UHGV virus genome: UHGV-0856201
Strand: one strand, 5' to 3'
DNA from: a virus
Length of the DNA stretch: 61,875 bases
The position numbers and the translations under genes were made by a program. Shown here piece after piece: positions 49,060 to 49,348 of this stretch (positions are counted from its first letter, which is position 1; each line of letters begins with the position of its first letter). The notes beneath the pieces are model-generated. The model was not told the origin of the DNA and searched no databases. It saw only the letters and a list, made by a program, of their open reading frames with translations.

Positions 49060-49112
49060 TATGTAAGTAATTTACACGTCCTTGTGTAATCCGTCAAGAA
49101 TTATTTTAAACT
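49060..49112 (-). promoter_or_regulatory. conserved phage early promoter (copy 11)
   Basis: ccgtcaagaattattttaaactg; -35 TTGACG 49092-49097 (minus). Confidence 0.6.
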
Positions 49113-49348
49113 GCAATTAACCAATCATCAGCTAAAATATCAGTTTGACTTGCAAGCCACGGAACAAACTTGTTATCGGCGGTTTTCATACCGATCCACG
49201 GGAGAGCATCCGGGGCTTCATACTCAAAGGCCACTTTGTCAGCGATGTCTGCTGGCACCAGTTTTAACCACATGCCTTTTCCATTCCACCCGGAACGGCA
49301 AACGCGCTTACCTTCTTTCATCATTGTAACTGCTTCGCCAAAATTCAT
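49106..49348 (-). CDS. DUF2829-family protein (Tad2-like, candidate anti-Thoeris sponge)
   Basis: Likely start [28 protein letters not shown]; later [22 protein letters not shown]; pattern matches my recollection of DUF2829. Confidence 0.55.
   Translation of the reverse strand: [80 protein letters not shown]

What the first reader, a model, noticed from the sequence alone, without database searches (positions are those of the whole stretch)
49106..49348. DUF2829-like small protein: candidate Thoeris-signal sponge (Tad2-like)
The 80-aa protein ([30 protein letters not shown]...[23 protein letters not shown]) matches my recollection of the DUF2829 family, which includes the anti-Thoeris protein Tad2 that sequesters the gcADPR signal. 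It sits in the terS-terL island immediately downstream of an early promoter.
Basis: partly seen in the sequence, partly recalled or inferred. Interest (0 to 1): 0.6.

Follow-up and report, generated by a model that had tools for sequence, protein, structure and literature searches.

The report
Tad2-family immune-signal sponge gene in a coliphage
This is a real 80-codon phage gene that clearly belongs to the known Tad2 (DUF2829) family of small proteins that soak up bacterial Thoeris alarm molecules; it is an ordinary new member of a well-studied family, and its exact ligand is untested.

Summary
The ORF exists exactly at 49106-49348, but on the minus strand (ATG 49348, stop 49108-49106, AAGGTG Shine-Dalgarno 6 nt upstream). 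It matches Pfam PF11195 "Tad2-like" end to end (E 2.5e-26, 92 bits, cut-off 25). It matches solved SPO1 Tad2 (E 1.9e-16) and ModTad2. A confident AlphaFold model (pLDDT 88.6) hits only Tad2 structures in the PDB (TM 0.82-0.86 to SPO1 Tad2 with gcADPR).

Nine of the 11 SPO1 Tad2 pocket positions compared are identical; the other two are hydrophobic substitutions (I63->M54, H71->V62). All are virtually invariant in 97 relatives. The insertion that forms the cyclic-dinucleotide pocket in HgmTad2 is short here (about 20 aa against 41).

The host genome is a Nonanavirus/Sashavirus-like (9NA-like) siphophage. The gene sits in a variable slot after rdgC and is shared at 97% nucleotide identity with only one phage record (Klebsiella phage VLCpiS10a), where the flanks are 75-85% identical.

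The promoter claim is reversed: a conserved 21-nt promoter motif starts right after the stop codon and drives the next gene.

Verdict: a new member of a known kind, most likely a 3'cADPR sponge. Ligand specificity cannot be read from sequence.

The parts
49106..49348 (-). Tad2-like (DUF2829) CDS, 80 aa plus stop; predicted 9.0 kDa, pI 4.9
   Evidence: ORF and translation. PF11195 E 2.5e-26, profile 1-72/73. SPO1 Tad2 8SME E 1.9e-16. AF2 pLDDT 88.6. Foldseek hits are Tad2 structures only. Charge and mass.
49355..49360 (-). Shine-Dalgarno AAGGTG, 6 nt before the ATG
   Evidence: Upstream sequence ...AAAAGGTGAATAGT|ATG.
49350..49508 (-). 52-aa ORF of unknown function; its stop is 1 nt before the Tad2 ATG and its start overlaps the rdgC stop
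   Evidence: No Pfam, PHROG or NCBIfam hit. It follows rdgC in several related phages with or without Tad2, so it belongs to the backbone, not to the Tad2 cassette.
49505..50419 (-). RdgC recombination-associated protein, upstream gene of the same transcription unit
   Evidence: PF04381 E 2.6e-114.
49085..49105 (-). Conserved phage promoter motif AATAATTCTTGACGGATTACA (P3). It abuts the Tad2 stop codon and drives the gp54-like gene, not Tad2
   Evidence: Exact motif match. TTGACG-17-TAAATT at 49097-49069. 97% identical in VLCpiS10a together with the Tad2 gene.
51042..51062 (-). Nearest upstream same-strand copy of the promoter motif (P2, 2 mismatches); candidate promoter for the transcript that carries Tad2
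   Evidence: TTGACG-17-TAGACT at 51054-51026. No minus-strand terminator-like site was found between it and the gene.
52665..52685 (-). Promoter motif at the head of the whole minus-strand island (P1), with the best sigma-70 match in the region
   Evidence: Exact motif. TTGACA-17-TAGAAT, 11/12, at 52677-52649.
48827..49033 (-). Downstream neighbour: 68-aa homologue of Pfam 'phage antiviral trigger protein Gp54'
   Evidence: PF25180 E 3.4e-18. Homologues in 209 phage records.
48801..48818 (.). GC-rich palindromic hairpin between the convergent terS and gp54-like genes; likely bidirectional terminator ending the minus-strand unit
   Evidence: Terminator scan on the + strand. On the minus strand the hairpin is followed by TTTCT.

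Best explanation
The gene encodes a minimal (80-aa) member of the Tad2 family of phage 'sponge' proteins.

Inferred mechanism, by homology to SPO1 Tad2 and HgmTad2: protomers assemble into a homotetramer with two pockets formed between protomers of different dimers. Each pocket encloses one ADP-ribose-derived signalling molecule made by a host TIR protein (ThsB) on infection. The most likely ligand is 1''-3' gcADPR (3'cADPR), the type I Thoeris signal. W21 and W64 would stack around the ligand. N22/G23 and S67/T69/D70 would bind phosphates and ribose hydroxyls. M54, T56 and V62 would line the adenine side. Sequestration without degradation would keep ThsA from being activated, so NAD+ is not depleted and the phage completes its cycle.

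The gene is expressed as a distal gene of a host-RNAP-transcribed polycistron (P2/P1 -> ... rdgC -> 52-aa ORF -> tad2). It is an accessory gene that moves between Nonanavirus/Sashavirus-like phages of E. coli and Klebsiella.

Shown here: gene, family, fold, pocket conservation, genomic context, horizontal transfer, purifying selection. Inferred: tetramer, ligand identity, anti-Thoeris phenotype, timing of expression.
For: PF11195 Tad2-like, E 2.5e-26, full length. PHROG 1048/872.

phmmer against the PDB: SPO1 Tad2 1.9e-16, ModTad2 2.8e-16, SptTad2, HgmTad2/AcrIIA7.

AF2 model pLDDT 88.6, pTM 0.77, with the same element order as described for Tad2 (helix a1, then beta strands, with short helices). 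All 24 significant Foldseek PDB hits are Tad2 structures, the best being 8SMF, SPO1 Tad2 + 1''-3' gcADPR (TMq 0.82-0.86); the next hit has E>1.

Pocket map: SPO1 W25/N26/G27/T65/D67/W73/S76/T78/D79 are identical here (W21/N22/G23/T56/D58/W64/S67/T69/D70). The changes are I63->M54 and H71->V62. HgmTad2, which binds both gcADPR isomers, uses M76 and V84 as hydrophobic adenine contacts, and its W21A/N22A and S90A/T92A/D93A mutants lose binding. These positions are invariant or nearly so in 97 clade members of 55-98% identity.

Prior from experiments: 4 of 5 diverse homologues plus SPO1 Tad2 inhibit type I Thoeris. About 99% of Tad2 homologues are predicted to keep a functional gcADPR site.

Accessory-gene behaviour: of 348 phage records with homologues, only VLCpiS10a has a near-identical copy. 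Related phages carry an unrelated 110-113-aa gene in the same slot. The gene plus 66 nt downstream is 97% identical to VLCpiS10a against 75-85% for the flanks, with 6 synonymous and 1 non-synonymous codon differences.
Against: No binding, oligomerisation or phenotype was tested.

The pocket residues compared do not discriminate ligands. ModTad2 carries W/N/G, T, D, W, S, S, D at the same positions, yet inhibits type II (His-ADPR) and not type I Thoeris. It scores as well as SPO1 Tad2 against this protein (62.2-62.3 against 62.7 bits).

In the 84-protein sponge screen about a quarter inhibited none of seven systems, and Tad2 members were spread over CBASS, Pycsar and Thoeris I/II/IV.

H71, which coordinates a water in SPO1 Tad2, is V here.

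How often the E. coli and Klebsiella hosts carry type I Thoeris was not measured here.

The model is a monomer, and residues 31-50 have pLDDT of about 70.
Confidence: 0.68

Rival explanations
1. The protein has the same fold and sponge mechanism but a different cognate ligand. It would sequester His-ADPR (type II Thoeris), N7-cADPR (type IV Thoeris) or an as yet uncharacterised TIR-derived signal of Enterobacteriaceae, and would not inhibit type I Thoeris (or would inhibit several types, like Tad2_71).
For: ModTad2, and its homologue from a Tatumella (Enterobacterales) prophage, inhibit type II Thoeris; ModTad2 does not inhibit type I, despite near-identical pocket residues. Two Tad2 homologues inhibit type IV Thoeris when expressed in E. 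coli, and Tad2_71 inhibits types I, II and IV. Specificity evolves repeatedly, and the family trees are unreliable. Foldseek also matches ModTad2 + His-ADPR, 9EIB, at TMq 0.78.
Against: Sequence identity is somewhat higher to SPO1 Tad2 (41/78) than to ModTad2 (35/78), and T69 matches SPO1 T78 rather than the Ser of ModTad2. Most tested homologues inhibit type I. The residues that determine His-ADPR or N7-cADPR specificity could not be obtained: the published paper is not held and no supplements are held. This rival is therefore not excluded, only less favoured by priors.
Confidence: 0.2
2. The protein is a second-pocket sponge that inhibits CBASS or Pycsar by binding cyclic dinucleotides (as HgmTad2 and SptTad2 do) or cUMP/cCMP (as MoTad2 does) at the intra-dimer interface.
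For: Family precedent. CBASS is reported to be generally more common than Thoeris.
Against: The CDN pocket of HgmTad2 is built almost entirely from a 41-residue insertion between b2 and b5. SPO1 Tad2, with 24 residues there, binds no cyclic nucleotide. This protein has only 19-20 residues there and lacks the extra Asn (HgmTad2 N85) before the conserved Trp. The MoTad2 cUMP pocket residues are not given in the text available, so that part is untested.
Confidence: 0.05
3. The protein is an AcrIIA7-type anti-CRISPR: the tetramer binds tracrRNA in a positively charged groove and blocks Cas9 RNP assembly.
For: Homologues in Escherichia phage Huey and Klebsiella phage phi1_146050 are annotated 'anti-CRISPR protein'. 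PDB AcrIIA7 entries match at E 3.4e-13 and 4.2e-12. A 2026 paper reports that headless AcrIIA7 binds tracrRNA through K58, K66, K71, K93 and R101.
Against: Another group found no Acr activity for HgmTad2 or other Tad2 homologues, in vitro or in vivo. Of the three mappable basic residues, K66 is Ser here, and K93 and R101 lie in the long insertion that this protein lacks. The protein is net acidic (-2, pI 4.9). From general knowledge, not tested here: E. coli and Klebsiella carry type I CRISPR-Cas systems and no Cas9/tracrRNA.
Confidence: 0.03
4. The DUF2829 domain has no anti-defence role in this phage: it is a decayed or neutral passenger, or serves another small-molecule or structural function.
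For: About a quarter of the sponge homologues tested inhibited none of seven systems. The domain also occurs fused to other N-terminal domains in 130-140-aa relatives. Most related phages do without it.
Against: The ORF is intact, with a good Shine-Dalgarno. It shows 6 synonymous against 1 non-synonymous differences to its nearest relative, and recent horizontal spread. The pocket residues are invariant across the clade.
Confidence: 0.04

Closest known systems
Bacillus phage SPO1 Tad2 (gp34.65; PDB 8SME/8SMF/8SMG, 8WJE)
   Same: Same Pfam family and fold (TMq 0.82-0.86), 46-53% identity, similar size (80 against 89 aa), and no long insertion. Nine of the 11 pocket positions compared are identical.
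   Different: Here I63->M54 and H71->V62, and the b2-b5 insertion is 5 residues shorter (19 against 24). The host is Gram-negative and the phage is a 58-kb siphovirus rather than a large myovirus. No biochemical data exist for this protein.
ModTad2 / MoTad2 (Myroides odoratus prophage; PDB 8V3E, 9EIB)
   Same: Equal phmmer score (62.2-62.3 bits), same fold (TMq 0.77-0.79), and nearly the same pocket residues.
   Different: ModTad2 binds His-ADPR and cUMP/cCMP and does not inhibit type I Thoeris. It has L, A and S where this protein has M54, V62 and T69. Identity is lower (45%).
HgmTad2 = AcrIIA7 (human gut metagenome; PDB 8KBI-8KBM) and SptTad2 (8WJD)
   Same: Same core and gcADPR site (W21/N22/G23 and the S-x-T-D motif). 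Met and Val act as hydrophobic adenine contacts, as here. TMq 0.71-0.77.
   Different: They carry a 41-residue insertion that forms a cyclic-dinucleotide pocket with pM cGG affinity, which is absent here. tracrRNA binding has been reported for AcrIIA7, but the basic residues involved are only partly present here.
Klebsiella phage VLCpiS10a S10a_00036 (UVX30749.1, annotated 'hypothetical protein')
   Same: 98.8% identical protein (one substitution, P46L), 97% nucleotide identity. It occupies the same slot: rdgC - (92 aa) - 52 aa - tad2 - promoter motif.
   Different: The backbone is different (flanks 75-85% identical), the host genus is different, and the downstream gene is a 55-aa ORF instead of the gp54-like one.

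Membership tests
Tad2 / DUF2829 (Pfam PF11195) | Full-length match to the family profile above the curated threshold | tested here: met
   92.4 bits against a cut-off of 25, E 2.5e-26, protein 1-78 on profile 1-72/73.
Tad2 / DUF2829 (Pfam PF11195) | Significant sequence similarity to experimentally characterised members | tested here: met
   SPO1 Tad2 E 1.9e-16, ModTad2 2.8e-16, SptTad2 1.5e-14, HgmTad2 3.4e-13.
Tad2 / DUF2829 (Pfam PF11195) | [quoted passage not shown] | tested here: met
   AF2 model H3-11, E16-18, E27-31, H33-36, E51-55, E61-63, H68-72, E76-78, pLDDT 88.6. Foldseek hits are Tad2 structures only, TMq up to 0.86.
Tad2 / DUF2829 (Pfam PF11195) | gcADPR pocket residues (SPO1 W25, N26, T65, D67, W73, S76, T78, D79; HgmTad2 W21/N22 and S90/T92/D93, essential by mutagenesis) | tested here: met
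   W21, N22, G23, T56, D58, W64, S67, T69 and D70 are identical. I63->M54 and H71->V62 are hydrophobic substitutions. They are invariant in 97 relatives.
Tad2 / DUF2829 (Pfam PF11195) | Homotetramer with two inter-protomer ligand pockets | not testable with these tools
   Only monomer prediction is available. Helix a1 (FGEAVTMMK against FGEALEVLK in SPO1 Tad2), which is a tetramer interface, is conserved, but that is not a test.
Tad2 / DUF2829 (Pfam PF11195) | Sequesters 3'cADPR / 2'cADPR without degrading it | not testable with these tools
   Needs purified protein and ligand.
Tad2 / DUF2829 (Pfam PF11195) | Restores phage infection on Thoeris-expressing cells | not testable with these tools
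   Needs an infection assay.
Tad2 / DUF2829 (Pfam PF11195) | Small accessory gene of phages or prophages, patchily distributed among close relatives | tested here: met
   Among the Nonanavirus/Sashavirus-like records only VLCpiS10a has it. The slot holds other genes in AVIO78A, Bas82, PJ16 and Carvaje.
CDN-binding Tad2 subgroup (HgmTad2, SptTad2, SaTad2) | Long (about 41-residue) insertion between b2 and b5 that forms the cyclic-dinucleotide pocket | tested here: not met
   The insertion is 19-20 residues, shorter than in SPO1 Tad2 (24), which binds no CDN.
His-ADPR-binding Tad2 clade (ModTad2, CcaTad2, TmoTad2) | Residues that accommodate the histidine moiety of His-ADPR, or clade membership | tested here: inconclusive
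   The pocket positions compared are nearly the same in ModTad2 and SPO1 Tad2, so they cannot assign this protein. The paper with the 9EIB contacts is not held.
AcrIIA7 (tracrRNA-binding anti-CRISPR) | Positively charged groove: K58, K66, K71, K93, R101 (pdAcrIIA7 numbering) | tested here: not met
   K58 and K71 correspond to K11 and K24. K66 corresponds to S19. K93 and R101 fall in the insertion that is absent here. Net charge is -2, pI 4.9.

The most novel reading that the evidence does not exclude
This clade of minimal Tad2 proteins is marked by M54/V62 in the pocket, a roughly 20-residue insertion, and the motif GMWLxLVP...[22 protein letters not shown]. It is widespread in proteobacterial phages. 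It may be tuned to a TIR-derived signal other than 3'cADPR: His-ADPR, N7-cADPR or a still unknown ADPR conjugate used by Enterobacteriaceae. In that case the protein could be used, as ModTad2 was, to fish out and identify that signal.
Probability: 0.2. Interest if true: 0.5.

Novelty: new member of a known kind. Interest (0 to 1): 0.25.

Why it matters
If the inference holds, this phage and Klebsiella phage VLCpiS10a carry a ready-made counter-defence against TIR-signalling immunity that their close relatives lack. That could explain host-range differences within a phage group used in Salmonella, E. coli and Klebsiella biocontrol work. It also offers a natural pair of near-isogenic backgrounds (with and without tad2) for testing.

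The 309-bp unit (gene plus downstream promoter) is 97% identical across phages whose flanks are 75-85% identical. This is a clean example of anti-defence genes moving as cassettes into a fixed slot.

It does not change what is known about Tad2. Current Pfam names the family, and the AntiDefenseFinder tool described includes a Tad2/AcrIIA7 family profile. The only near-identical GenBank copy is still labelled 'hypothetical protein'.

Tried and rejected
1. NCBIfam gave no hit for the protein or its neighbours.
2. I tested whether the upstream 52-aa ORF is a split-off version of the N-terminal extension seen in the closest 135-aa relatives. There is no similarity, and the ORF turned out to be linked to rdgC, not to tad2.
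3. I looked for the residues that distinguish His-ADPR from 3'cADPR binders. The published Nature paper is not held, the preprint has only the apo structure, a review does not cover it, and the supplements of the 84-sponge screen are not held.
4. I tried to recover the HgmTad2 sequence for an exact residue map through a Bacteroides phage homologue. The PDB search printed SptTad2 and SPO1 alignments instead, so the HgmTad2 M76/V84 correspondence rests on spacing to the conserved Trp and on SptTad2.
5. No paper links Tad2 with Sashavirus, Nonanavirus or 9NA. The BASEL paper on Bas82 did not test Thoeris.
6. The other small ORFs of the island and the alternative slot genes of relatives gave no informative Pfam hits.
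7. I found no usable figure for the prevalence of Thoeris in E. coli or Klebsiella.

Full report
**1. The observation**

It is on the minus strand: ATG at 49348, TAA at 49108-49106.

An in-frame GTG three codons upstream (49357) would give 83 aa. The ATG is the better start for two reasons. It is preceded by AAGGTG at a 6-nt spacing, and homologues start MNFG/MSFG.

The stop codon of the preceding 52-aa ORF (49350-49508) lies 1 nt before the ATG. That ORF in turn overlaps the end of rdgC (49505-50419; PF04381, E 2.6e-114). The gene is therefore a distal cistron of a tightly packed operon.

**2. What the protein is**

- Pfam gives a single, full-length hit to PF11195 'Thoeris anti-defense 2-like domain', formerly DUF2829 (92.4 bits against a gathering score of 25, E 2.5e-26).
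- PHROGs 1048 and 872 match at E about 1e-27.
- Against PDB sequences, every hit is a Tad2/AcrIIA7 protein. These are SPO1 gp34.65 (1.9e-16), ModTad2 (2.8e-16), SptTad2, HgmTad2 and pdAcrIIA7.
- The 5.8-billion-protein search returned 4,677 homologues at E<=1e-5, all of those listed carrying PF11195.
- An AlphaFold2 model built on 97 of them has mean pLDDT 88.6 and pTM 0.77. Only residues about 31-50 fall to about 70.
- Foldseek against the PDB gives 24 significant hits, all Tad2 structures. The best is SPO1 Tad2 bound to 1''-3' gcADPR (8SMF, TMq 0.82-0.86, 46-49% identity). Nothing else is below E=1.

**3. The ligand pocket**

The SPO1 Tad2-gcADPR structure names W25, N26, I63, T65, D67, H71, W73, S76, T78 and D79 as contacts or water ligands. 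Mapped through the phmmer alignment, these are W21, N22, M54, T56, D58, V62, W64, S67, T69 and D70 here. All are identical except I63->M and H71->V.

HgmTad2 binds both gcADPR isomers. Its hydrophobic adenine contacts are M76, A78 and V84. Its W21A/N22A and S90A/T92A/D93A mutants lose binding. The equivalents here (W21/N22 and S67/T69/D70) are intact.

In the 97-sequence clade alignment these 11 positions are invariant or differ in only 1-2 sequences.

The region between b2 and b5 builds the cyclic-dinucleotide pocket in HgmTad2. It is 41 residues there and 24 in SPO1 Tad2, which binds no cyclic nucleotide. Here it is only 19-20 residues. This protein is therefore a minimal Tad2: the ADPR-signal pocket without the extra domain.

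**4. What cannot be decided from sequence**

- ModTad2 has almost the same residues at these positions (L, A and S instead of M54, V62 and T69). Yet it inhibits type II Thoeris by binding His-ADPR and does not inhibit type I. It also binds cUMP/cCMP at a second site.
- In a screen of 18 Tad2 homologues, members inhibited CBASS, Pycsar and Thoeris types I, II and IV in various combinations. The authors warn that the family tree is unreliable.
- On the other side, 4 of 5 diverse homologues plus SPO1 Tad2 inhibit type I Thoeris. The gcADPR site is predicted functional in about 99% of family members.
- This protein is somewhat closer to SPO1 Tad2 (41/78 identical) than to ModTad2 (35/78).

I therefore put 3'cADPR first (about 0.68) and a different ADPR-type signal second (0.2).

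**5. The anti-CRISPR reading**

Some relatives are annotated 'anti-CRISPR protein', a label inherited from AcrIIA7.

- One group found no Acr activity for HgmTad2 or other Tad2 homologues.
- A 2026 paper reports that headless AcrIIA7 binds tracrRNA through a basic groove formed by K58, K66, K71, K93 and R101.
- Here K66 is Ser, and K93 and R101 lie in the missing insertion. The protein is net acidic (pI 4.9).
- From general knowledge, the enterobacterial hosts lack Cas9 and tracrRNA.

I rate this rival at 0.03.

**6. Genomic context**

The window is a Nonanavirus/Sashavirus-like (9NA-like) siphophage. It is 91-94% identical in patches to Sashavirus BDX09P1 and to Escherichia phages AVIO78A, PDP46, PJ16 and KarinMuster_Bas82.

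The gene lies in a roughly 4-kb block of small minus-strand genes between terS (48058-48708, +) and terL (52754-54517, +).

A 21-nt motif, AATAATTCTTGACRGATTACA, contains the -35 hexamer. It occurs 15 times in the window, against 0.01 expected. Three copies lie on the minus strand of the island:

- **P1 (52685-52665):** has the best sigma-70 match in the region, TTGACA-17-TAGAAT, 11/12.
- **P2 (51062-51042).**
- **P3 (49105-49085).**

P3 begins at the base after the Tad2 stop codon. It faces the next gene, a 68-aa homologue of Pfam PF25180 'phage antiviral trigger protein Gp54' (48827-49033). A GC-rich hairpin follows at 48801-48818.

The gene is therefore immediately upstream of that promoter, not downstream of it. 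Its own transcription must come from P2 or P1. No minus-strand terminator-like site was found in between. Whether these promoters are early is unknown.

**7. Distribution and evolution**

tblastn finds homologues in 348 phage records. Only one is near-identical: Klebsiella phage VLCpiS10a (98.8% aa, annotated 'hypothetical protein'). The next is Pseudomonas phage phiAH14a at 73%.

The other Nonanavirus/Sashavirus-like genomes lack it. In AVIO78A, Bas82, PJ16 and Carvaje the slot after rdgC (and the 52-aa ORF, where present) holds an unrelated 110-113-aa gene with no Pfam hit.

Nucleotide identity between the window and VLCpiS10a, by segment:

| Segment | Identity |
|---|---|
| tad2 gene | 97.1% |
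| 66 nt downstream, including P3 | 97.0% |
| 52-aa ORF | 84.9% |
| terS | 79% |
| rdgC | 76% |

The seven differing codons in the tad2 gene are 6 synonymous and 1 non-synonymous (P46L). This is the signature of a recently exchanged cassette under purifying selection. That fits an accessory counter-defence gene, although such context is only circumstantial.

The exact protein also occurs on two short Logan contigs with the same rdgC - 52 aa - tad2 order.

**8. Verdict**

The family assignment is confirmed by profile, sequence, fold and pocket residues. The promoter detail is reversed.

The gene is a new member of a known kind: an as yet unannotated Tad2-family sponge in a coliphage group where none has been reported.

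The mechanism is inferred by homology. Tetramerisation, ligand identity, phenotype and expression timing remain to be tested. Interest is modest (0.25), because current Pfam already names the family and the AntiDefenseFinder tool includes a Tad2/AcrIIA7 profile. The open question of which signal this minimal enterobacterial clade binds is the only part with discovery potential.

**9. Noticed in passing**

The window is a chimeric scaffold.

- The phage genome is window 1680-60187 (58,508 bp). Its first and last 127 bp are identical, so this is a circular assembly with a 127-bp terminal overlap.
- It is flanked by two pieces of an anellovirus ORF1, at 510-1619 and 60171-61454 (PF02956).
- A 100-N gap lies at 60188-60287.
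- A further 127-bp copy of a terS segment lies at 60288-60414.

This is an assembly artefact and does not affect the gene.

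Noticed in passing
window 1-1679, 1680-60187, 60188-61875: The window is a chimeric scaffold. A circularly closed phage genome (58,508 bp) has identical first and last 127 bp (1680-1806 = 60061-60187). It is embedded between two fragments of an anellovirus (torque teno virus) ORF1: 510-1619 (PF02956, E 4.8e-79, profile 3-301) and 60171-61454 (E 2e-39, profile 352-525). The flanks have 36% GC against 43% in the phage. A 100-N gap lies at 60188-60287, followed by 127 bp (60288-60414) identical to 48532-48658 inside terS. The repeated 127-bp overlaps and the N gap point to an assembly or scaffolding artefact.
   Followed up: yes
window, 15 sites: 2076, 3579, 8292, 8607, 17766, 19713, 36852, 36915, 42221, 43770, 49085, 51042, 52665, 54554, 58234 (start coordinates): A conserved 21-nt promoter-like motif, AATAATTCTTGACRGATTACA (AT-rich stretch, then -35 TTGAC, then GATTACA), occurs 15 times with at most 3 mismatches, against 0.01 expected. 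It is on both strands. It looks like the phage's standard host-RNAP promoter. Positions relative to genes and timing classes were not analysed genome-wide.
   Followed up: partly
window 48827-49033 (-): A 68-aa homologue of Pfam PF25180 'phage antiviral trigger protein Gp54' (E 3.4e-18) lies directly downstream of tad2 with its own promoter motif. Homologues occur in 209 phage records, mostly about 50-kb E. coli phages, plus Sashavirus 536P12 at 67%. A predicted counter-defence gene thus sits next to a gene whose family is named as a trigger of host immunity.
   Followed up: partly
window 43374-43769 (+) and 44077-44844 (+): A 131-aa protein matches PF10686 YAcAr (YspA/cpYpsA-related SLOG family, E 5.3e-20), followed by a ParB-HTH protein. 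From general knowledge, SLOG domains are nucleotide/ADPR-ligand binders and the ThsA sensor domain is a SLOG, so a phage-encoded stand-alone SLOG-family protein might be worth a look.
   Followed up: no
window 46665-47468 (-), repeats about 46790-46925: A 267-aa ORF with no Pfam hit contains about six tandem copies of the heptapeptide APVARVE (a 21-bp DNA repeat), seen in the translation. A related phage record (Sergei) annotates a 'direct tandem repeat region' within the stretch matched.
   Followed up: no
L007 1965-2297 (PJ16_004), L008 1961-2302 (Carvaje_0006), L002 1501-1836 (AVIO78A_004), L003 1783-2118 (Bas82_0098): In relatives that lack tad2, the same slot after rdgC (and the 52-aa ORF, where present) holds a 110-113-aa gene with no Pfam family. 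As an alternative occupant of a slot that elsewhere carries a counter-defence gene, it is a candidate for another accessory function.
   Followed up: partly
P0002, P0003, P0005, P0015 (proteins of 133-140 aa): After the 98% hit, the closest relatives in the big protein database (74-77% identical over the Tad2 domain) carry a 53-61-residue N-terminal extension. Some extensions hold a GYxVxYxDGYxSWSPKxxFExAY motif, which is also seen N-terminal to the DUF2829 domain in Bacteroides phage BS162P1. By position this may correspond to the inhibitory 'head domain' described for full-length pdAcrIIA7; this was not compared.
   Followed up: no
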